Assembly: GCA_938091745.1 (NCBI GenBank) | Contig: CALLJK010000002.1 | Location: forward strand, 26,842 to 90,841 | Source of the DNA: Candidatus Bipolaricaulota bacterium | GTDB taxonomy: Bacteria > Bipolaricaulota > Bipolaricaulia > RBG-16-55-9 > DRXL01 | Direction: 5' to 3' | Length of the DNA: 64,000 nt | Notes under the pieces: generated by a model | Told to the model about the DNA's origin: nothing | Database searches by the model: none | What the model saw: the letters and a program-made list of their open reading frames with translations, nothing else | Shown: piece by piece, positions 16,995 through 45,161 of the stretch | How positions within the stretch are numbered: position 1 is the first letter of the stretch | Layout: each line of letters starts with the position of its first letter | Translations under genes and position numbers: made by a program

Positions 16995-18854
16995 ATGTTG
17001 ATTCATATCGTCCGCGTTAGCGTACTGCTAGGCTTAGTGAGCTGCCTCCCCTTTATAGGCAGTCTGAGAGCAGAAGTGCTAGGGGCAATGGACGGCGCTC
17101 TCGCTGAGCCCGTCTTGCTCTTTGGGATCGGGATGCACATCGAGCCGCTGGGTCGGACTGCCCAAGGGTATTTTAGTGGTGGCGGGCCCGATTATCGCCA
17201 AGGCCCGCTGTTTGAGCGCCACGTGCAAGATATTCTCGCTGTAGCGAGGATCGTCGAAGCGCACGGCGGACGCATGACTGTTCAAGCGCAAAGCCCCTTC
17301 ACCCAAGTGGCCATCGAGAAGAGCAACACGATCTTAAAAGACTTAGAGTCTCGCGGCCACGAGATCGCCCTGCACTTTCATGAGGACGCCCATCTGGGGA
17401 GAAACTCTGAAGGACTCGGTGTGCAAGCGTGGTGCACCGTGATGCAAGAAGAGATCTCATATATTCAGAGATCGGGCGCACAGAAGAAGATCCGCTACTG
17501 GAGCGGCGGCAATCTCTACCCTGGGCTCTTAGACGCGGCTTCGTGTGCTGGGCTGGACGTGATGAGCGATTGGAAGAATCCAAGAACGCAAAGCACGGAT
17601 CGCTCGCTCTTAGGAGTGCATCCGTGGCGTCCGGCGGGCGGCCCCAGCGAAACTGATCTATCAAAATTTGCCACGCACGACCCCAATGGGAAGATTATCT
17701 TTCTCCCCGAAGGCGCATATGACCCAGAGAAATTTGCGCGCAAGCGCGAGATCATCGCTCAGGGAGGAGATCAAGCGTGGTTCGAGGTGCTGCGTGAAGC
17801 ACTGGAGCGTTCGCTTGCATCAGCGAGAGCTGATAGAGTCAACGTCTTTCACTTCACGGTCCATCCGGGAGAATTTCGCGGCGACTTCGCTCGGCCCTTC
17901 GGCGTCATCGAAGACTTTCTCACGAACGTCGTAGACCCCTTAGTCAAAGCTGGGAAGATCCACTGGGCGACGTTTTCGCAGATGGCCGACGAGTTCATCG
18001 CGTGGGAGAAGGCCAATCCGGGAGTAGATCCGCGCTCAGCTCAACAGCCTCTCCGTCCCACTGAACCTGATGTTACGTATTGCGTCATGAACGGCGTCGA
18101 GCTGAAGATGGACATCTATCGTCCCAGGGGAAGCGCAGCCCCGACGCCAGCGTTGCTCTACGTGCACGGTGGCGGCTGGACTGGAGGGGATAAACGCTCC
18201 GGCGCAGGCTCACTCGACTTTGCAGAACTGCTCGCTCGTGGATATCTCATCGCCGCTGTGAATTATCGTCTTGCGCCGCGCTATAAGTTCCCCGCGATGA
18301 TCGAAGACGTCAAGTGTGCTGTGCGTTTTTTGAAAGCCAACGCTGAGCGATACAATCTCAATTCCAACAAGATCGGGGCGTGGGGCGGCAGCGCTGGAGG
18401 ACATTTGGTGGCGCTTCTGGGAACTGCCGATGAGACAGCGGGCTGGGACGTCGGCCAATATTTAGAACAGTCAAGCCGAGTCCAAGCCGTTGTGGACATG
18501 TTCGGCCCGACAGACCTGACAGTGCTCTTTGAAGGAGCCAATCCTCGACTGATGGAACAAGTCTTCGGCACGTCGGATCGAAATTCAGAGATTTTGAAGC
18601 GAGCGAGCCCGGTGAACTGGGTCTCGTCGGACGACTCGCCGTTCTTGATTCTCCACGGCGAGCGCGACCCGCTCGTGCCCGTCAGTCAGTCCCAAATCTT
18701 CTATGAGAAACTGCAAGCAGCCAAGGTGCCCGCAACACTGGTGATCGTGAAGAACGCCGGGCACGGCTTTGTCCCGATGGGCGGGCCAATCAGCCCTACG
18801 CGGCAAGAACTGACAAAAATGATGGGAGATTTCTTCGATCAGTATCTGAAATAG
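16995..18854 (+). CDS. Secreted two-domain hydrolase: N-terminal domain of unclear family plus C-terminal alpha/beta-hydrolase esterase (HGGG oxyanion motif, GGSAGG nucleophile elbow)
   Basis: Signal peptide. C-terminal motifs LYVHGGGW, GGSAGGHL, and the Asp/His region DPLVP...GHGF. Confidence 0.7.
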   Translation: MLIHIVRVSVLLGLVSCLPFIGSLRAEVLGAMDGALAEPVLLFGIGMHIEPLGRTAQGYFSGGGPDYRQGPLFERHVQDILAVARIVEAHGGRMTVQAQSPFTQVAIEKSNTILKDLESRGHEIALHFHEDAHLGRNSEGLGVQAWCTVMQEEISYIQRSGAQKKIRYWSGGNLYPGLLDAASCAGLDVMSDWKNPRTQSTDRSLLGVHPWRPAGGPSETDLSKFATHDPNGKIIFLPEGAYDPEKFARKREIIAQGGDQAWFEVLREALERSLASARADRVNVFHFTVHPGEFRGDFARPFGVIEDFLTNVVDPLVKAGKIHWATFSQMADEFIAWEKANPGVDPRSAQQPLRPTEPDVTYCVMNGVELKMDIYRPRGSAAPTPALLYVHGGGWTGGDKRSGAGSLDFAELLARGYLIAAVNYRLAPRYKFPAMIEDVKCAVRFLKANAERYNLNSNKIGAWGGSAGGHLVALLGTADETAGWDVGQYLEQSSRVQAVVDMFGPTDLTVLFEGANPRLMEQVFGTSDRNSEILKRASPVNWVSSDDSPFLILHGERDPLVPVSQSQIFYEKLQAAKVPATLVIVKNAGHGFVPMGGPISPTRQELTKMMGDFFDQYLK

Positions 18855-18876: not shown

Positions 18877-18906
18877 TTGACAGGACAGTGCTGTCTCCTA
18901 TATAAT
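18877..18906 (+). promoter_or_regulatory. Near-consensus sigma70 promoter (TTGACA, 18 nt, TATAAT) with a perfect palindrome GACAGTGCTGTC in the spacer, upstream of the protoglobin gene
   Basis: -35 at 18877-18882. Extended -10 TATATAAT at 18899-18906. Palindrome at 18884-18895. Confidence 0.55.
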
Positions 18907-18944
18907 TAGGAATCCTAACTATTACAGACTACAGGAGGCTCGCT

Positions 18945-19526
18945 ATGGCTGTAAATATCCCTGGCTACACCTACGACAGCGCCGCTCCCTCGCCCGTCAC
19001 GCTCAAGGAGCTTGAAGAGCTCAAGAAGGCCGTGCTCTTCACCCCCGAAGACGAAAAATATCTCAAGATGGCCGGCGAAGTCCTGAAAGACCAGATAGAC
19101 GCTGTGTTGGATCTCTGGTACGGCTTTGTGGGGTCGCATCCCCATTTAGTGTATTATTTCTCTGGCCCCGACGGCAAGCCCGACGCGAACTATCTCGCAG
19201 CAGTACGTAAGCGTTTTGGCCAATGGATTCTCGACACGTGCACGCGTCCCTATGATCAGACCTGGCTCAACTATCAGCACGAGATCGGACTGAGACACCA
19301 TCGCACGAAGAAAAACAAGACCGACAACGTGCGCTCTGTCCCCAACATTCCGTTGCGCTATCTGATCGCGTTTATTTATCCCATCACGGCGACGATCAAG
19401 CCCTTCTTAGCGAAGAAGGGGCACAGCCCCGACGAGGTTGATAAAATGCACCAGGCGTGGTTCAAATCGGTGACGCTCCAAGTCGCGTTATGGAGCTGTC
19501 CGTATGCCAAAGACGGGGATTTTTAA
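18945..19526 (+). CDS. Protoglobin (single-domain globin of the globin-coupled-sensor lineage)
   Basis: Very high similarity, from memory, to Methanosarcina acetivorans protoglobin. Shared blocks IPGYTY, WYGFVGSHPHLVYYF, YLAAVRKRF, EIGLRHH and YPITATIKPFLA. Confidence 0.8.
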   Translation: MAVNIPGYTYDSAAPSPVTLKELEELKKAVLFTPEDEKYLKMAGEVLKDQIDAVLDLWYGFVGSHPHLVYYFSGPDGKPDANYLAAVRKRFGQWILDTCTRPYDQTWLNYQHEIGLRHHRTKKNKTDNVRSVPNIPLRYLIAFIYPITATIKPFLAKKGHSPDEVDKMHQAWFKSVTLQVALWSCPYAKDGDF

Positions 19527-19733
19527 GCTAGCGCAGCGCAAGGTATTCATCGAGATCAAGCTCGCTTGCTTCAAAATCCTGTGAAATGCGCGCGGATTGA
19601 GGTCGCCCGTGTGGTACGGTACAGGGATAATTGTGGTGCCGCGCTTAAGAATGCGATGGGACCCTGTCACCCGCACTTGCACGAAGCCGATCTTCTTCAA
19701 AACACGAATGACATGGCGAGGCGTATCAGTCAT
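19488..19733 (-). CDS. hicA: HicA-family mRNA interferase toxin (with ~20 aa C-terminal extension)
   Basis: VTGSHRILKRG...PVPYHTGDL...ILKQASL matches the HicA dsRBD-like fold consensus. Confidence 0.7.
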   Translation of the reverse strand: MTDTPRHVIRVLKKIGFVQVRVTGSHRILKRGTTIIPVPYHTGDLNPRAFHRILKQASLISMNTLRCASLKIPVFGIRTAP

Positions 19734-19966
19734 GAAGTGACTTCAATGATCTCGACGTCTTGATCTTGAAGCTCTTCGCCTAACAGTTCGTGGTATGCAG
19801 TCAGGACCTCACGGATATTGTGGAGAGCTTCCTCGCGCGTGCGTCCTTCGGAAAAACATGCAGGAATCGCTGGGCAGTAGACAGACCATTTATACTCCGT
19901 GGGGGCATGAGAGTCATATTCTAAGACGACTGCTAGCGGCTTGGCGATGGCTTTCCCCTTAGTCAT
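19730..19966 (-). CDS. hicB: HicB-family antitoxin
   Basis: Small UPF0150/HicB-like protein ending EGRTREEALHNIREVL. It overlaps hicA by 4 nt (ATGA). Confidence 0.65.
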   Translation of the reverse strand: MTKGKAIAKPLAVVLEYDSHAPTEYKWSVYCPAIPACFSEGRTREEALHNIREVLTAYHELLGEELQDQDVEIIEVTS

Positions 19967-19999
19967 AGGCGTTTGTTATTATACACGAATGAGGAGATC

Positions 20000-20587
20000 A
20001 TGGACAAGCTTGACGCAAAGATCGTCTCTGCGCTAGAGCGGCTCTCCCACGTGCTCAGAACGTTGCTGTGGGAGGAAGCCGGAGAAAGCCGCCTCAGCCC
20101 CATCCAAATCCAGTCGCTGCTCTATCTCCGCTCCCACGACGAGAAGCTCTGTCGGGTCAATCAACTTGCAGAAGAGTTCGGGCTGACCCCAGCGACGATG
20201 AGCGACGCTGTCAGTTCTCTTGAAGCGAAGGGGCTGCTCACCCGCAAGCCGTGGCCTCAAGATAAGCGCGTTTTCACGCTGCGCCTCACCGCCAAGGGCC
20301 GACGCTCTGCAGAAAAGCTTGCACGCTGGAGCGACGTGCTCACCAAGCAGCTTGAGCGCTTTGCCCCCGAAGAGAAAGAGCAAGCCCTGAAATTCTTGCT
20401 CAAGCTCATTGAATCGCTCTATCGGGCGGGAATCATCACGGTCGCGAGGATCTGTCTGACGTGCCGGTTCTTCCGCCCCAATGCCCATAAGAACGCCCGA
20501 GCGCCGCATCACTGCGCGCTGATGGACAAGCCTCTAGCCGAGAGCGATCTCCGAGTAGACTGCCCGGAGCATGAGCGAGTCGCTTAG
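20000..20587 (+). CDS. MarR-family transcriptional regulator with C-terminal Cys/His cluster (CLTC...HHC...CPEH)
   Basis: Winged-helix MarR core. GAGGAG RBS lies 5 nt before ATG 20000. The C-terminal extension contains 4 Cys and 4 His. Confidence 0.75.
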   Translation: MDKLDAKIVSALERLSHVLRTLLWEEAGESRLSPIQIQSLLYLRSHDEKLCRVNQLAEEFGLTPATMSDAVSSLEAKGLLTRKPWPQDKRVFTLRLTAKGRRSAEKLARWSDVLTKQLERFAPEEKEQALKFLLKLIESLYRAGIITVARICLTCRFFRPNAHKNARAPHHCALMDKPLAESDLRVDCPEHERVA

Positions 20588-20659
20588 GGCCCTCATCCCG
20601 CCCTTGCGGGCACCCCTCTCCCGTAGTCACCTACGGGAGAGGGGTTGGGGGTGAGGGCC
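20588..20659. repeat. Palindromic element with GGCCCTCA.../...GGGTGAGGGCC termini enclosing a 14-bp hairpin (CCCCTCTCCCGTAG/TACGGGAGAGGGG). It overlaps the 3' end of the DUF5317 gene.
   Basis: Terminal inverted repeat and internal hairpins read directly. The termini match those of the family-1 elements at 29018 and 40600. Confidence 0.65.
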
Positions 20660-21194
20660 TCTTCCCCAACAGCCAGATCACTCCCAATCCTAACAACAGA
20701 TCCCCAACGCTGAACGCGTTGGCAAACGGCACCCAGCTCGGCAGCCAAAGAATATCTCCCAAAAAATTGAGCTTCGTCGTCTCGCTCATTAGGATAACGT
20801 TGCCCGAAACGCCGTCAATGAGTAATTTTTCGACCGTCGCTGCTCTCCCCGCAGCGCGCAACGCATCGAGAGACGCCGGCATGTGCCCGCCGTTGGCAGT
20901 AATGACTATGAAATTCGAGAGCATCCCCAGGGCCATCGGCCAGAGGGCTTTCTCGCGATAATTGAGAACAGCAAAGAGCAGCAAGAGCAGATACGACCCG
21001 ATGTGTAAGAACTCCATGCCCCACGTGACGATAGGCTGTGCGTTCTGCCCCAGGGGCAGAATGAGAACCTGAACGAGCACAGCGAGTAGCACCAGCCAGC
21101 CCGCGCGTAGCTTCAATTCCGCAAGATATGCCAGACTTCGATGGCGTACTAACCCGATGAGCAGTCCTAGGAGAATCGCCCAGAGGAGAACCAT
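20631..21194 (-). CDS. DUF5317-family integral membrane protein
   Basis: Polytopic membrane protein downstream of HD-GYP. The last ~10 codons (KRPSPPTPLP) come from the repeat element. Confidence 0.6.
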   Translation of the reverse strand: MVLLWAILLGLLIGLVRHRSLAYLAELKLRAGWLVLLAVLVQVLILPLGQNAQPIVTWGMEFLHIGSYLLLLLFAVLNYREKALWPMALGMLSNFIVITANGGHMPASLDALRAAGRAATVEKLLIDGVSGNVILMSETTKLNFLGDILWLPSWVPFANAFSVGDLLLGLGVIWLLGKRPSPPTPLP

Positions 21195-22513
21195 AGGGGC
21201 TCTTTCAGCTCGTCGGAGATGACGCGAACTAATGCTTCGACGACCTTAGGGTCGAACTGGCGGCCGCTCTGGCTCTGGATGATGCGCACGGCTTCGACGG
21301 GGTCATAGTGTCGTGGCAGCCCTTGGGATTCGCGATAGGGCCGGTCGCTGGTGAGCGCGTGATAGACGTCGGCAACGTGGATGATGCGCGCGCCGATGGG
21401 GATCTGTTCGCCCTTGAGGCCGTCGGGGTAGCCGGTGCCGTCCCAGCGCTCGTGCTCATATTTCACAAGCTGCGCAGCTTCACTGTACATCTCTAAGTTT
21501 TTTAAGAGATCGAAGCCGACAAGCGTGTGCTGTTTCACGAGCTTCCAATCGGAGTCATCGAGCGGGCCGGGTTTGTTGAGAATCGAATCGGGGATGGCGA
21601 CCTTGCCGATGTCATGCACACGGGCGGCGGTGCGGATGACTTCGATCTGGTCTTCGGGCAGTTCCATCTCGCGCGCGATCTTTTCGGCCAAGTCAGCAAC
21701 TTCTTCGGAGTGTTCGGCGGTGTAGGGGTCGTGTTCGTGGAGCATGCGAACGATAGCTTCGAGGGTACGCTGGGTTTCTCTACGGAGCTTGGTATAGCCG
21801 CGCAGGGTAAGGTGCACCCCGACGGCGGGGATGAGCACGAGAAGAGTTTGCCAGGGGGCTTGGGCGTAGACGACGGCGATCAAGATCGAAATGATGCCGA
21901 TGGCTAAGACTTGGAAGGGGAGGTTGCGCATCTTAAAAGTCACAAGCTTTGAGAACTTGATGCGCTGGGTCAGGGTAAGAATTCCAGAGACAAGCACAGT
22001 ATTCGCAGTCGTATAACCTACGTAAGCAAGAGCGGGCGGTATCAGCTCAGCGAGCGAGTTATACGGAGGTGGATGGCCGCCGAGCAGTTGGAAGATTAAG
22101 ATAGCTATCCAGCCATTTAGTAATAACTGACTTGTGTTGAAAGCAACGCGGGAGAAGAAATATGAAGGGTCTTGGCGCAGCCGGTGCCAGCGCAAGATAA
22201 TCTCAGCGGGCAACGTCCCTAACAAGATGCTCCAAGTCATCACTGAGGGGCCAGCAATGAATAATACAGCGCAGTAGGCAATCTCGCACGTTGACATTCT
22301 GCGTTGCAACGCAATTTCAACTTCAAAGATGTCAGAAAAGAAGGCAAGGATCGCAGTGATCAGTATCAGCGATATTTTTGTTGGATCATTCCCAAGTTGA
22401 GGCAGGTAGAGGCTAAGCGGGATCAGACTTAGCAGCACAACGCTCCATAGATACAGCTTCGCTCGCCAGCTCATGCTGGCAGCATTATATGAAAATGAAA
22501 AAGGGGAGTCCAA
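21167..22513 (-). CDS. 7TM-receptor-coupled HD-GYP cyclic-di-GMP phosphodiesterase
   Basis: N-terminal 7 predicted TM helices. C-terminal HD-GYP motifs HDIGKVAIP and GTGYPDGL. Confidence 0.85.
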   Translation of the reverse strand: MDSPFSFSYNAASMSWRAKLYLWSVVLLSLIPLSLYLPQLGNDPTKISLILITAILAFFSDIFEVEIALQRRMSTCEIAYCAVLFIAGPSVMTWSILLGTLPAEIILRWHRLRQDPSYFFSRVAFNTSQLLLNGWIAILIFQLLGGHPPPYNSLAELIPPALAYVGYTTANTVLVSGILTLTQRIKFSKLVTFKMRNLPFQVLAIGIISILIAVVYAQAPWQTLLVLIPAVGVHLTLRGYTKLRRETQRTLEAIVRMLHEHDPYTAEHSEEVADLAEKIAREMELPEDQIEVIRTAARVHDIGKVAIPDSILNKPGPLDDSDWKLVKQHTLVGFDLLKNLEMYSEAAQLVKYEHERWDGTGYPDGLKGEQIPIGARIIHVADVYHALTSDRPYRESQGLPRHYDPVEAVRIIQSQSGRQFDPKVVEALVRVISDELKEPLWFSSGRFS

Positions 22514-32779: not shown

Positions 32780-32854
32780 GGGCGCATAGCTCAGCGGGAG
32801 AGCGCCTGCTTCACACGCAGGAGGTCCGAGGTTCAAGTCCTCGTGCGCCCACCA
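32780..32854 (+). tRNA. tRNA-Val (anticodon CAC), CCA encoded
   Basis: Cloverleaf can be read directly. Acceptor GGGCGCA/TGCGCCC. D-arm GCTC-AGCGGGA-GAGC. Anticodon arm CCTGC-TTCACAC-GCAGG. T-arm CGAGG-TTCAAGT-CCTCG. Total 75 nt. Confidence 0.9.
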
Positions 32855-43262: not shown

Positions 43263-45161
43263 ATGAGGCGCAGGGGGAATAATAGCATAGGTCGAGCGTT
43301 CGTGCTCACGCTGCTGTTGGTTATAGTCGGTCTGAACACCCCAGGGTTGCTCTCGCAGTCCCAGATCGAGAGTCCAGAAGCCCCGCGCGTGATATACGTG
43401 CTCCTGCCCACGGGCCGATGCGTCATCGCGCCACCAGGTTTGCCCGCAGATAATTGCCCCTCAGGGACTCTCCCCCCGAAAGAGACTTTTATCAATTGGA
43501 TCGCAGCCGATGGGAGTGACTTTGAGGGAGCTATCGGGTACAAAGATATCAATAAAGACATAATCAAAGTGACATTTCGCGTCATCGAAGCGACCGAAGT
43601 GAAGGACGCCCCGCCAGGGACGTTTCGAGCGGGGCAGATCTTCAGCTTTGAGCCCCCAGCCCAGACAAGCGAGACAGGGGAATTTGGCTTTCGCATCTTC
43701 ACGACCGTGCCGCAAGATGTCACCCTCGAAGTGACGCTCGAAGATGCCAAGAAGAACGTCAGCCAACCCAAGATATTTTCTTTTAAAGCCGTCGGCCCAG
43801 AGCCGATCATCAGCAAGATCATCTTCCCTACGGAGATCCCCCTCGGGGCTGAGCAGAAAGTCCTAGTCGGTTTCATAGATCGTGAGGGCCAATTGAGCCG
43901 CGTCTACTTTCAGCTGATCAACTTTGATCCCAAGCGTGTGGGGGACTGCTCGCTGCCCATCGACCCCAATGGCATCGATGTGAGCGAGCAAGTCTTGGGC
44001 GACAAAGAAGGCGAGCTAAGTTTTTCCATGTCGTGCAACAGCGCGCAGCGGCTCAAGTTCCACGTCGTCTTAGTGGACCGCCAAGGCAATCGGAGCGAGC
44101 GGAGCATCCTGCGGCAGCAAAGCACGTTTGAGTTTATCGCAGGGCGCAAAGTCGCTGATGGGCTCTTCTTCCTCGATCAATTTGGGCGAGATGGCAGCGA
44201 ACTTGGCGCATTCCGGAGCCCCCAGGGAATCGCTGTGGACAGTAAAGGGTTCATCTACGTTGCCGATACGGAGAACCATCGCATTCAAGTCTTTGATCCG
44301 AGCACGTTCAAACTCACGGAAAAGCTCCCACGGGCTGTGTGGGGTAGCCGATGTCTGTTGCGGACCGGGGAGGGGTGTCGCGATCCCGATGGCGGGGGGC
44401 CGCTTGTTCCAGGCGATGGGCAGTTTGACGGCCCAACAGATGTCGCCGTCGACGCAGCAGGCAATGTCTATGTCGTGGACAGCGGCAATCATAGAATCCA
44501 GAAATTTGACGCTAACGGGAAGTTCTTGGCTAAGTGGGGCACACGTGGCAGTGGCCCTGGCCAGTTTGATGCCCCTATCAGCATTGGACTGGACAGCACG
44601 GGAAGGTTCGCCTACGTGGCTGATAAAGGGAACCATCGCATTCAGAAATTTGACATTAGTCGGTCCCCAGTGCAATTCATAACCCAATGGGGGAGCGAAT
44701 GTAATCTCACGATGACACCTCCCACAGGGCGCTGCGTCGATCCCGATGGTGCCGGTCCACGCCAGATTGGCGATGGGCAATTTTTTGAACCGAAGGCAGT
44801 GGCTGTCGATAGAGCAGGAAATGTCTATGTCTCAGATACAGGGAATCATCGCATTCAGAAATTCAAAGAGAACGGGGAGTTTCTGCTCAAGTTTGGGCGC
44901 AAAGGCTTTGCCCCAGGGCAGTTCGATACCCCTCGCGGTTTAGCCTTCACGGACCAAGGGAACTTGCTCGTCGTTGATCAAGATAATCATCGTGTCCAGG
45001 AATTTGACAGCGAAGGCAAATTCGTGCGGCAATGGGGTGTGCAAGGCACGGGGGAAGGGGAGTTCAACGCGCCGCAAGATATTGCTCTCGACAGCGCGGG
45101 CAATATCTATATTGTCGAACTGCTCAACAATCGCGTGCAAAAATTAGGGGACCTAAAATAG
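43263..45161 (+). CDS. Secreted NHL-repeat beta-propeller protein with N-terminal domains of unknown function
   Basis: Signal peptide. The C-terminal half carries six NHL repeats with recurrent NHRIQ(K/V/E)FD motifs. Confidence 0.75.
   Translation: MRRRGNNSIGRAFVLTLLLVIVGLNTPGLLSQSQIESPEAPRVIYVLLPTGRCVIAPPGLPADNCPSGTLPPKETFINWIAADGSDFEGAIGYKDINKDIIKVTFRVIEATEVKDAPPGTFRAGQIFSFEPPAQTSETGEFGFRIFTTVPQDVTLEVTLEDAKKNVSQPKIFSFKAVGPEPIISKIIFPTEIPLGAEQKVLVGFIDREGQLSRVYFQLINFDPKRVGDCSLPIDPNGIDVSEQVLGDKEGELSFSMSCNSAQRLKFHVVLVDRQGNRSERSILRQQSTFEFIAGRKVADGLFFLDQFGRDGSELGAFRSPQGIAVDSKGFIYVADTENHRIQVFDPSTFKLTEKLPRAVWGSRCLLRTGEGCRDPDGGGPLVPGDGQFDGPTDVAVDAAGNVYVVDSGNHRIQKFDANGKFLAKWGTRGSGPGQFDAPISIGLDSTGRFAYVADKGNHRIQKFDISRSPVQFITQWGSECNLTMTPPTGRCVDPDGAGPRQIGDGQFFEPKAVAVDRAGNVYVSDTGNHRIQKFKENGEFLLKFGRKGFAPGQFDTPRGLAFTDQGNLLVVDQDNHRVQEFDSEGKFVRQWGVQGTGEGEFNAPQDIALDSAGNIYIVELLNNRVQKLGDLK

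What the first reader, a model, noticed from the sequence alone, without database searches (positions are those of the whole stretch)
18945..19526. Archaeal-type protoglobin in a bacterial chromosome, with a near-consensus promoter and palindromic operator
The 193-aa protein is strikingly similar to the Methanosarcina acetivorans protoglobin. Long shared blocks include WYGFVGSHPHLVYYF and YPITATIKPFLA. This suggests inter-domain horizontal transfer.

The gene sits in a small accessory islet with hicBA and a Cys/His-tailed MarR regulator.

Its upstream region carries a textbook TTGACA-18-TATAAT promoter with the perfect palindrome GACAGTGCTGTC in the spacer, which is a likely repressor site.
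Basis: partly seen in the sequence, partly recalled or inferred. Interest (0 to 1): 0.55.

Follow-up and report, generated by a model that had tools for sequence, protein, structure and literature searches.

The report
Native bacterial protoglobin with its own repressor
The gene is a real protoglobin, but it is a long-resident bacterial gene rather than a recent archaeal import, and it forms a widely conserved unit with a four-cysteine MarR regulator and a 13-bp operator, which gives an experimental handle on the unknown function of protoglobins.

Summary
The 193-aa ORF (18945-19526) is a true protoglobin. It is 70% identical to the Methanosarcina acetivorans protoglobin and keeps every haem-pocket residue checked. 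The TTGACA-18-TATAAT promoter is real and conserved.

- **Origin.** The window comes from a Candidatus Bipolaricaulota genome. The gene sits in the same syntenic place in relatives, uses host-like codons, and falls in a phylum-specific clade (96-99% bootstrap). Deeper branching is unresolved.
- **Islet.** Only hicBA, and the hydrolase gene upstream, are accessory. hicBA is an insertion that splits an otherwise overlapping or abutting pgb-marR operon.
- **Operator.** GACAGTGCTGTC is not a perfect palindrome and is not conserved.

The conserved element is TTAGGA-N-TCCTAA (18906-18918), which abuts the -10 box. This operator, the protoglobin and a MarR with four invariant C-terminal cysteines co-occur across many phyla. 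In some loci cytochrome P460 takes the protoglobin's place behind the same operator.

Most likely the Cys4-MarR is an autoregulated repressor that releases the protoglobin promoter on a redox, NO or haem-related signal. I found no paper describing this regulon.

The parts
18877..18882 (+). -35 hexamer TTGACA of the protoglobin promoter
   Evidence: Promoter scan scores 12/12. Conserved in 13 distinct Bipolaricaulota-type promoters and in Chloroflexota, Acidobacteria and Rubrobacter loci.
18884..18895 (.). It is an imperfect 5-2-5 inverted repeat and probably not functional.
   Evidence: Reverse complement differs. The spacer sequence is not conserved in orthologous promoters. There are 93 such 5-2-5 repeats in the window.
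18901..18906 (+). -10 hexamer TATAAT
   Evidence: invariant in 13 distinct orthologous promoters.
18906..18918 (.). Candidate operator TTAGGAATCCTAA: a perfect 6-1-6 inverted repeat that overlaps the last base of the -10 box and the predicted transcription start
   Evidence: It is the only copy in the window with at most one mismatch. Both arms are invariant in 12 of 13 distinct Bipolaricaulota-type promoters and the centre base varies freely; one promoter has a single arm change and one further locus (L093) has one arm mismatch. An exact copy occurs in 17 of the 80 scan loci across phyla (18 of 81 with L081, which is identical to the window). Copies with at most 1 mismatch number 112 in 1.19 Mb, against 2.6 expected. 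It co-occurs with the Cys4-MarR (Fisher p=6e-9).
18933..18938 (+). Ribosome-binding site AGGAGG, 6 nt before the ATG
   Evidence: Read directly from the sequence; AGGAGG or close variants (e.g. AGGAGC) conserved in alignment A1.
18945..19526 (+). Protoglobin gene (193 aa), single-domain haem protein. Predicted proximal His118 (F8); distal Trp58 (B9), Tyr59 (B10), Phe91 (E11), Phe143 (G8).
   Evidence: Pfam PF11563. PDB 2VEB E=1.5e-94. Residue mapping and conservation in 85 homologues. 5794 homologues at E<=1e-10.
19527..19999 (.). Lineage-specific insertion carrying hicBA between pgb and marR. It also supplies a new RBS (GAGGAG) and ATG for marR.
   Evidence: Absent in L001-L004, L082-L085, L086-L093 and L166, where pgb and marR overlap, abut or are 78 bp apart. 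hicB GC3 z=-4.1.
19488..19733 (-). hicA toxin gene (81 aa). Its 3' end overlaps the protoglobin 3' end by 39 nt.
   Evidence: Pfam PF07927, 52.7 bits against a cutoff of 27, covering residues 6-58. Coordinates.
19730..19966 (-). hicB-like antitoxin gene (78 aa)
   Evidence: Pfam PF15919, 27.8 bits against a cutoff of 27. A promoter-like site TTGTCC-18-TATAAT lies on the minus strand at 20007..19978.
20000..20587 (+). marR gene (195 aa): MarR-type winged-helix regulator with a C-terminal four-cysteine extension. It is the conserved partner of the protoglobin. The ORF-list start at 19973 is probably not used.
   Evidence: Pfam MarR_2 and MarR above cutoff. AlphaFold2 pLDDT 82.5 with a MarR fold; Foldseek hits are all MarR proteins. 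Found next to pgb in about 50 of 80 genome loci. Conversely, pgb lies next to it in 63 of 80 MarR-seeded metagenome loci. Gene call starting at the ATG corresponding to window 20000.
20453..20563 (+). Region encoding the Cys4 tail (Cys152, Cys155, Cys172, Cys188 of the 195-aa protein), the putative metal or redox sensor site
   Evidence: The four Cys are invariant in 50/50 and 119/119 sequences. No Pfam or PDB match for the tail.

Best explanation
The window comes from a Candidatus Bipolaricaulota (Acetothermia/OP1) genome. Gene 18945-19526 encodes a resident, vertically maintained protoglobin, a single-domain haem-b protein with proximal His118.

The protoglobin is the first gene of a conserved two-gene unit, pgb-marR. 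It is driven by a strong sigma-70 promoter whose -10 box abuts a 13-bp palindrome, TTAGGA-N-TCCTAA.

Proposed mechanism (inferred):
1. The partner MarR dimer binds this palindrome over the -10/+1 region. This represses the operon, including its own gene.
2. Its C-terminal domain with four invariant cysteines holds a metal or Fe-S centre, or redox-active thiols.
3. A signal at that site, most plausibly NO or another nitrogen oxide, O2 or oxidants, or haem status, releases the repressor from DNA.
4. The cell then makes protoglobin as the effector that binds or detoxifies the ligand.

In this particular genome a hicBA toxin-antitoxin cassette has been inserted between pgb and marR. This uncouples marR from the overlapping or abutting arrangement seen in most relatives (one close relative has a 78-bp spacer).

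Shown here by computation: gene identity, synteny, the conserved operator, co-occurrence of the three parts, the invariant cysteines, and the insertion. Inferred: DNA binding, repression, the nature of the signal, and the protoglobin's chemistry in vivo.
For: **Identity.** Pfam, PDB and residue mapping agree.

**Host and vertical history.**
- The closest homologues are Bipolaricaulota, including Acetithermum autotrophicum H5SUA1 at 93%.
- Gene order is conserved over more than 10 kb, with neighbours 75-92% identical.
- The Bipolaricaulota clade has bootstrap 99 and 96.
- Codon usage is host-like.

**Operon.** In relatives pgb and marR overlap by 23-26 nt or abut directly.

**Operator.**
- It is invariant next to the -10 box while the promoter spacer varies.
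- An exact copy occurs in 17 of the 80 scan loci from at least eight phyla.
- Copies with at most 1 mismatch are present in 38 of 50 loci with the Cys4-MarR and in 3 of 30 without it (p=6e-9).
- Of all 49 such sites in 822 kb, 41 lie in the 200 bp upstream of the unit.
- It sits beside the -10 box in sigma-70-type phyla and beside the TAnnTTTG box in Bacteroidota.

**Reciprocal test.** Of 80 metagenome loci found with the MarR alone, 63 carry a protoglobin directly upstream and 61 carry the operator.

**MarR.** The four Cys are invariant and the fold is MarR.

**MarR senses on its own; pgb is an output.** In nine loci a secreted cytochrome P460 replaces pgb behind the same operator. A periplasmic protein could not be a cytoplasmic partner of the MarR.
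Against: - There is no experimental evidence for DNA binding, repression or an inducer.
- 12 of 50 MarR-containing loci have no operator with at most 1 mismatch in the searched 200 bp. Some have 2-mismatch variants or truncated contigs.
- In the window marR is cut off from the pgb promoter by an antisense hicBA cassette. No plus-strand promoter was found in front of it, so its expression here is uncertain.
- The Cys4 tail is modelled with only moderate to low confidence (pLDDT 33-82). It matches no known metal-binding family, so Zn, Fe-S and thiol chemistry cannot be told apart.
- Many protoglobin loci lack this MarR (Nitrosomonas, Nitrospira, myxobacteria, Thermoproteota), so the regulator is not universal.
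- The deep phylogeny is unresolved.
Confidence: 0.75

Rival explanations
1. The protoglobin is an archaeal gene recently transferred into a bacterial accessory islet together with hicBA and the MarR, and it is repressed through GACAGTGCTGTC in the promoter spacer.
For: Identity to MaPgb is 70%. hicBA really is a lineage-specific insertion with atypical GC3. An archaea-only sister group appears in 18 of the 96 bootstrap replicates that recovered the clade. A Bathyarchaeia sequence is 76% identical.
Against: pgb and marR are syntenic and as conserved as housekeeping neighbours in related genomes. Codon usage is host-like. No tRNA or mobility gene lies nearby; the only tRNA is at 32780. At least eight labelled bacterial homologues are closer than any archaeal one. 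The spacer motif is imperfect and not conserved. Bacterial protoglobins are long known.
Confidence: 0.05
2. Split globin-coupled sensor. The protoglobin is itself the gas sensor and controls the MarR by direct protein-protein contact, perhaps with the Cys4 tail. The pair would then act as a two-piece haem-based transcription factor.
For: Protoglobins belong to the sensor-globin lineage (PMC7475203). pgb and marR overlap or abut, which suggests translational coupling. The two genes co-occur tightly in both search directions.
Against: A secreted cytochrome P460 can replace pgb in the same operator-marR unit. Gene order and spacing vary, and DUF2024 or other genes can lie between the two. Many protoglobins have no such MarR. 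No Pgb-MarR fusion appeared among the 150 best family representatives; the only fusion seen was MarR-MarR.
Confidence: 0.1
3. Haem-supply regulator. The Cys4-MarR senses free haem or iron, as the MarR-type haem sensor PefR does. It would adjust synthesis of haem apoproteins to cofactor availability. No gas or stress response would be involved.
For: Every gene found behind the operator is a haem or CxxCH protein: protoglobin, cytochrome P460, cytochrome c, and DUF2024 with a CxFCH motif. A Cys-Pro dipeptide, typical of haem-regulatory motifs, is frequent in the tail. PefR appears among the structural neighbours.
Against: The Cys-Pro and the His residues are not invariant, whereas four Cys are. 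That pattern fits a Cys4 metal site better than axial haem ligation. PefR similarity is confined to the common MarR core.
Confidence: 0.15

Closest known systems
Methanosarcina acetivorans protoglobin (MaPgb, PDB 2VEB) and Aeropyrum pernix ApPgb (PDB 7UTE)
   Same: The proteins are about 195 aa and single-domain, and align end to end. Identity to MaPgb is 70%. Proximal His F8 and the B9 Trp, B10 Tyr, E7 Val, E11 Phe, G8 Phe and G11 Ile pocket residues are all present.
   Different: The host is a bacterium. The gene is paired with a Cys4-MarR and a conserved operator. Whether MaPgb has such a partner was not checked. The archaeal loci sampled mostly lack it and often carry a divergent HxlR-type regulator instead.
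Bacterial protoglobins already catalogued (Chloroflexus aurantiacus, Thermobifida fusca, Thermosynechococcus, Thermus thermophilus, Rubrobacter xylanophilus; PMC1457004)
   Same: Same family in bacteria. Metagenome-assembled Rubrobacter genomes (L026, L032) and Chloroflexota loci carry the same pgb-marR-operator unit.
   Different: Those surveys list the globins only. No dedicated regulator or operator is described in the papers I could search.
NsrR-Hmp type circuits (a Cys-ligated Fe-S repressor of the Rrf2 family controlling an NO-detoxifying globin; from my own knowledge)
   Same: The proposed logic is the same: a repressor with a cysteine-bound sensor site occupies a palindrome over the core promoter of a globin gene and is released by a reactive gas.
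   Different: The regulator fold differs (MarR winged helix plus a C-terminal Cys4 tail, not Rrf2). Cluster binding and NO responsiveness are untested. The globin is a protoglobin without a reductase domain.
Redox- or haem-sensing MarR regulators (OhrR, PefR)
   Same: They share the MarR fold and probably derepression by modification of the protein.
   Different: The sensing residues here lie in an extra domain of about 45 residues with four invariant Cys. That domain has no counterpart in solved MarR structures; all PDB matches end by residue 144.
HicAB type II toxin-antitoxin modules
   Same: HicA and HicB-like Pfam matches, two small overlapping genes.
   Different: Here the cassette is a passenger inserted inside another operon. 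The HicA ORF runs 39 nt into the protoglobin gene on the opposite strand.

Membership tests
Protoglobin (Pfam PF11563; sensor-globin lineage) | Profile match above the curated threshold over the whole domain | tested here: met
   132.2 bits against a cutoff of 25; residues 21-191 match profile positions 3-156 of 158.
Protoglobin (Pfam PF11563; sensor-globin lineage) | About 195-aa single-domain protein with the N-terminal extension, collinear with solved protoglobins | tested here: met
   Residues 4-193 align to residues 5-195 of 2VEB, E=1.5e-94.
Protoglobin (Pfam PF11563; sensor-globin lineage) | Proximal His F8 and the distal/tunnel residues Trp B9, Tyr B10, Phe E11, Phe G8 | tested here: met
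   H118, W58, Y59, F91 and F143 are present. These columns are conserved in 71-85 of 85 homologues. The residue list comes from my knowledge of the MaPgb structure papers.
Protoglobin (Pfam PF11563; sensor-globin lineage) | Binds haem b and diatomic ligands | not testable with these tools
   Needs recombinant protein and spectroscopy.
MarR family transcriptional repressor | Winged helix-turn-helix MarR domain (profile and fold) | tested here: met
   MarR_2 scores 44.2 bits (cutoff 27) and MarR 38.3 bits (cutoff 24.6). The AlphaFold2 model has pLDDT 82.5. The best Foldseek hits listed are all MarR-family proteins.
MarR family transcriptional repressor | Palindromic operator overlapping the promoter of the adjacent or own gene | tested here: met
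   TTAGGA-N-TCCTAA abuts the -10 box and is conserved and co-inherited with the regulator. This is computational evidence only.
MarR family transcriptional repressor | Binds that DNA and is released by a ligand or modification | not testable with these tools
   Needs gel shift or footprinting, and in vivo reporters.
Fe-S or metal-thiolate sensor regulators (functional class, e.g. NsrR, FNR, WhiB-like) | Set of invariant Cys ligands | tested here: met
   C152, C155, C172 and C188 are invariant in 119/119 and 50/50 sequences.
Fe-S or metal-thiolate sensor regulators (functional class, e.g. NsrR, FNR, WhiB-like) | Homology to a known cluster-binding domain | tested here: not met
   No Pfam or PDB match for the tail. 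The only hit is a sub-threshold HIPIP match at E=0.06 in one homologue. It is therefore not filed as a member of any known family.
Fe-S or metal-thiolate sensor regulators (functional class, e.g. NsrR, FNR, WhiB-like) | Actually binds Fe-S or Zn and responds to NO, O2 or oxidants | not testable with these tools
   Needs anaerobic purification, UV-vis and EPR spectroscopy, and metal analysis.
Recently acquired genomic islet (horizontal transfer) | Absent from the same site in close relatives | tested here: not met
   pgb and marR are present at the same site in L001-L004, L082-L085 and L166. This feature is met only for hicBA, and partly for BD-FAE.
Recently acquired genomic islet (horizontal transfer) | Atypical base composition or codon usage | tested here: not met
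   pgb has GC3 z=+1.4 and codon fit z=+2.1. In contrast hicB has GC3 z=-4.1.
Recently acquired genomic islet (horizontal transfer) | Phylogeny nested in the donor domain | tested here: inconclusive
   The phylum-specific clade is supported at 96-99%, but its sister group is unresolved: bacteria-only 56, mixed 22 and archaea-only 18 of the 96 replicates in which the clade was recovered.
HicAB toxin-antitoxin | HicA and HicB profile matches in an overlapping gene pair | tested here: met
   HicA scores 52.7 bits (cutoff 27). HicB_lk scores 27.8 bits (cutoff 27), which is marginal. The two genes overlap by 4 nt.

The most novel reading that the evidence does not exclude
The Cys4-MarR is a previously unrecognised class of metal- or Fe-S-based sensor, for NO, nitrogen oxides or O2. 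Together with its TTAGGA-N-TCCTAA operator it defines a stress regulon spread across many bacterial phyla and at least one archaeon. The usual effector is protoglobin, which is interchangeable with cytochrome P460. This would assign protoglobins, whose physiological role has been open since 2004, to detoxification or scavenging of NO or nitrogen oxides.
Probability: 0.3. Interest if true: 0.7.

Novelty: new variant of a known kind. Interest (0 to 1): 0.5.

Why it matters
Protoglobins are well studied structurally and are now widely used as engineered carbene-transfer enzymes (my own knowledge). [quoted passage not shown]

A dedicated regulator with a sharply defined operator, conserved across phyla, turns that question into a simple experiment. 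Find what releases the Cys4-MarR from TTAGGA-N-TCCTAA and you learn when cells need protoglobin.

The replacement of protoglobin by cytochrome P460 in the same unit points to nitrogen-oxide chemistry.

The MarR family defined here is also large and unnamed, with at least 704 clusters at 50% identity. It carries an uncharacterised four-cysteine domain.

As for the original claim, the result is sobering. A high identity to an archaeal model protein is not evidence of inter-domain transfer when the family is broadly bacterial.

Tried and rejected
- **Naming the nearest unnamed homologues.** The listing of cluster members returned no names.
- **Deep phylogeny.** Neighbour-joining with bootstrap on 85 and 93 sequences resolves the Bipolaricaulota clade and a Thermoproteota clade (87%). 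It resolves nothing deeper, with support of 4-13%. No maximum-likelihood program was available.
- **Cys4 tail.** No Pfam or PDB sequence match. Foldseek on the model finds only the MarR core.
- **Rosetta-stone fusion of protoglobin and MarR.** None appeared among the 150 best representatives. The long hits are MarR-MarR tandems or N-terminal low-complexity extensions.
- **Target-site duplication.** An AAGCT direct repeat flanks the hicBA insert. This idea is weakened because a close relative, L166, has a different 78-bp GC-rich hairpin spacer at the same junction. The junction is simply variable.
- **Other operator copies in the window.** None was found. The one 2-mismatch site at 45144 is at chance level.
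- **Other module genes in the window.** No DUF2024 or cytochrome P460 homologue is present.
- **PADLOC on hicA/hicB.** No hit.
- **NCBIfam.** No specific family for the protoglobin, and only weak generic MarR hits far below cutoffs.
- **Literature.** No paper in the searchable library links a protoglobin to a MarR regulator.
Full report
**1. What is in the sequence**

An ATG-to-stop ORF lies at 18945-19526 (+), 193 aa. An AGGAGG ribosome-binding site sits 6 nt upstream.
- It matches Pfam Protoglobin PF11563 at 132 bits against a cutoff of 25.
- It aligns end to end with the M. acetivorans protoglobin 2VEB (E=1.5e-94) and with A. pernix ApPgb (E=8e-76).
- Identity to MaPgb is 70.4%.
- The proximal His (H118, F8) and the pocket and tunnel residues W58, Y59, V87, R90, F91, F143 and I147 are all present. 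These columns are nearly invariant in 85 homologues.

The promoter TTGACA (18877-82), 18 nt, TATAAT (18901-06) is a 12/12 match.

Its reverse complement is GACAGCACTGTC. It is a 5-2-5 inverted repeat, of which the window holds 93.

**2. Whose genome, and is the gene foreign?**

The homologue search returned 5794 proteins at E<=1e-10.
- The roughly 60 closest clusters (85-100% identity) are Candidatus Bipolaricaulota wherever a source gives a name. They include Acetithermum autotrophicum H5SUA1 at 93%.
- Next come bacterium HR23 (81%) and then Dehalococcoidia, Armatimonadota, Dadabacteria and one Bathyarchaeia sequence at 76-79%.
- A scan of species-representative genomes gave the same picture. 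Bipolaricaulota are at 89-93%. Chloroflexota, Planctomycetales, Acidobacteria, Armatimonadota and Deltaproteobacteria are at 73-77%. Thermoproteota archaea are at 62-69%.

Synteny is decisive. In L001, L002 and L004, and in contigs whose protoglobin is 95% identical (L082-L085, L166), the same genes surround it. These are GTP cyclohydrolase I, an AIRS/ThiL-like gene, Mut7-C, pgb, marR, DUF5317, an HD-GYP protein and ornithine carbamoyltransferase, at 75-92% amino-acid identity.

Composition agrees. The protoglobin's GC3 (z=+1.4) and synonymous-codon fit (z=+2.1) are host-like.

Phylogeny gives limited help.
- Neighbour-joining trees give 99% and 96% bootstrap for a Bipolaricaulota clade, and 87% for a separate Thermoproteota clade.
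- Deeper nodes are unresolved.
- In the 96 replicates that recovered the Bipolaricaulota clade, its sister was bacteria-only in 56, mixed in 22 and archaea-only in 18.
- MaPgb's own nearest neighbours in the sample are bacterial.

Protoglobins in bacteria have been on record since 2004-2006 (PMC1457004, PMC7475203).

Conclusion: a recent archaeal import is excluded. An ancient transfer of unknown direction cannot be excluded.

**3. What is and is not accessory**

In relatives, marR follows pgb directly. The two genes overlap by 23-26 nt (L002, L082-L085), abut as TAG-ATG (L001), or are separated by a 78-bp GC-rich hairpin spacer (L166).
- Only the window, and its identical Logan contig L081, carries hicBA there.
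- The insert of about 473 bp (19527-19999) has a hicB with GC3 z=-4.1.
- The insert supplies a new RBS and ATG for marR. The N-terminus becomes MDKLDAK instead of MRKTEISELDEK.
- The HicA ORF runs 39 nt into the protoglobin 3' end on the other strand.
- The BD-FAE hydrolase upstream (16995-18854) is also variable. It is present in L001 and L166, reduced to a remnant in L002, and absent in L004 and L082-L085.

So the 'islet' consists of hicBA and the hydrolase. It does not include the protoglobin or the MarR.

**4. The real operator**

I aligned orthologous promoters from 13 distinct Bipolaricaulota-type sequences.
- The -35 box is conserved. The -10 box and, in 12 of the 13, the block TTAGGA-N-TCCTAA immediately after it are invariant (L004 has one arm change). 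The central base varies freely among A, G and C.
It differs even in the 95% relatives, for example GAGACAGCCGGCTTTTCA.
- In the window the palindrome is at 18906-18918. It overlaps the last base of the -10 box and the expected transcription start.

The same palindrome recurs across phyla.
- The exact 13-mer occurs in 17 of the 80 scan loci (18 of 81 counting L081, which is identical to the window). These come from Bipolaricaulota, Chloroflexota, Armatimonadota, Rubrobacter, Bacteroidota, Ignavibacteria and Balneolaceae. It always lies 15-120 bp upstream of the first gene of the unit.
- With at most one mismatch there are 112 sites in 1.19 Mb of fetched loci, against 2.6 expected.
- In sigma-70-type phyla it abuts TATAAT. 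In Bacteroidota it abuts TAnnTTTG, which I know as that phylum's -7 promoter box.
- In all cases it overlaps the core promoter, which is the position of a repressor site.

**5. The partner regulator**

The downstream MarR has a confident MarR fold (AlphaFold2 pLDDT 82.5). The Foldseek hits listed are MarR-family proteins aligned over about 130-145 columns.

It also has an extra C-terminal tail of about 45 residues.
- The tail carries four invariant cysteines in the pattern C-x2-C-x(13-17)-C-x15-C, in 50/50 and 119/119 sequences.
- The His residues and the Cys-Pro dipeptide are common but not invariant.
- The tail matches no Pfam family and no PDB sequence.
- Database names are only generic 'MarR family' labels.
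- An exhaustive profile search finds 704 representatives (50% clusters) at E<=1e-30, nearly all of them full-length matches that include the tail.

**6. Co-occurrence tests**

*Forward test.* Starting from protoglobin, about 50 of 80 genome loci carry this MarR within the unit. It lies downstream, upstream or divergent.
- The operator (at most 1 mismatch, within 200 bp upstream) is present in 38 of 50 loci with the MarR and in 3 of 30 without it. Fisher p=6e-9.
- Loci without the MarR lack the operator. These are Nitrosomonas, Nitrospira, myxobacteria and most archaea.
- Some of those loci have a divergent double-wHTH HxlR-type regulator instead.

*Reverse test.* Starting from the MarR alignment alone, 63 of 80 metagenome loci have a protoglobin immediately upstream, and 61 have the operator.

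*Replacement by cytochrome P460.* In nine of the loci without a protoglobin, the gene between operator and marR is a signal-peptide-bearing cytochrome P460 (PF16694, E~1e-35). In at least two of these (L115, L140) a cytochrome c follows.

*A third member.* In Bacteroidota, some Chloroflexota and Ignavibacteria a DUF2024 protein joins the unit. It is related to the structure 2HFQ and has a conserved CxFCH motif.

**7. How it most likely works**

*Shown by computation:* a strong promoter; an operator over the -10/+1 region; a co-inherited MarR with a Cys4 site; and haem-protein targets.

*Inferred:*
1. The MarR dimer represses the unit, including its own gene, by binding the palindrome.
2. Its Cys4 site perceives a signal and releases the DNA.
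3. Protoglobin is the effector.

A periplasmic cytochrome P460 can take the protoglobin's place. The regulator therefore probably senses the signal itself, and the protoglobin is not its sensor subunit.

From my own knowledge, cytochrome P460 acts on hydroxylamine and NO. That favours a nitrogen-oxide or nitrosative signal. Oxygen or oxidants, and haem availability, remain open.

In the window, marR is separated from the promoter by the antisense hicBA cassette, and no plus-strand promoter was detected before it. Its expression here is therefore uncertain.

**8. Comparison with what is known**

- The protein is a member of the protoglobin family; every sequence-level defining feature was met.
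- The regulator is a member of the MarR family, but its Cys4 domain belongs to no described family.
- The circuit resembles NsrR-Hmp in logic, though not in protein family.
- Searches of the paper library found no work linking a protoglobin to a MarR regulator.

**9. Verdict**

The finding as written (archaeal import, accessory islet, spacer palindrome) is largely wrong, although the gene call and promoter are right. What is really there is an ordinary resident bacterial protoglobin. It is embedded in an apparently undescribed regulatory unit that is conserved across phyla: the Cys4-MarR, the TTAGGA-N-TCCTAA operator, and protoglobin or cytochrome P460. That unit is the interesting part and is directly testable.

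Noticed in passing
L094, L115, L134, L138, L140, L147, L157, L159, L164 (e.g. L147 2364-3591): A secreted cytochrome P460 (PF16694) takes the place of the protoglobin between the TTAGGA-N-TCCTAA operator and the Cys4-marR gene. In L115 and L140 a cytochrome c follows it.
   Followed up: partly
L034 6622-6885, L038 910-1173 and 25 other loci: A DUF2024 protein of about 87 aa lies between pgb and marR in Bacteroidota, some Chloroflexota and Ignavibacteria. It is related to PDB 2HFQ, carries a conserved CxFCH motif and a C-terminal Cys, and has no signal peptide. It is absent from the window.
   Followed up: partly
window 19488-19999: A hicBA cassette is inserted between pgb and marR. The HicA ORF overlaps the protoglobin 3' end by 39 nt on the opposite strand, and hicB has strongly atypical GC3 (z=-4.1). 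An AAGCT direct repeat flanks the insert, but the junction also varies in relatives (78-bp hairpin spacer in L166).
   Followed up: yes
window 16995-18854: A 619-aa BD-FAE / alpha-beta hydrolase gene lies upstream of pgb. It is present in L001 and L166, reduced to a remnant in L002, and absent from L004 and from relatives L082-L085.
   Followed up: partly
L007 5513-5908, L016 5277-5858, L022 5276-5866, L024 5260-5856: Protoglobin loci that lack the Cys4-MarR carry a divergently transcribed regulator with HxlR-type winged helices instead (two HxlR stretches in the two examples scanned, L022 and L024). They come from Planctomycetales, a deltaproteobacterium, Pelearchaeum and Nitrososphaerota. 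This suggests that an alternative dedicated regulator evolved there.
   Followed up: partly
L009, L012, L015, L017, L023 (marR-first arrangement): The marR ATG lies 1 nt after the operator, within roughly 20 nt of the -10 box, with no room for a ribosome-binding site. These transcripts are probably leaderless.
   Followed up: no
L027 1233-2475, L029 6001-7240, L069 6001-7242, L097 463-1833: Tandem duplicated protoglobin genes occur within the unit. In the neighbour-joining tree, the second copies from the three genome loci (L027, L029, L069) form their own divergent clade; L097 was not included in the tree.
   Followed up: no
protein P0356 (420 aa, from the representative search): A single polypeptide made of two complete Cys4-MarR units in tandem, that is, a covalently linked 'dimer'.
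   Followed up: partly
window 20631-22513 (-): A DUF5317 membrane protein and an HD-GYP-type (HD_5) protein with an N-terminal membrane domain form a conserved overlapping pair convergent on marR in the three Bipolaricaulota-type loci that extend past marR (L001, L002, L004). The pair was not found next to pgb in other phyla.
   Followed up: partly
L004 (CAMTVK010000021.1): This contig is labelled Candidatus Fraserbacteria, yet it is fully syntenic with the Bipolaricaulota loci at 77-89% protein identity. The taxonomic label is doubtful.
   Followed up: no
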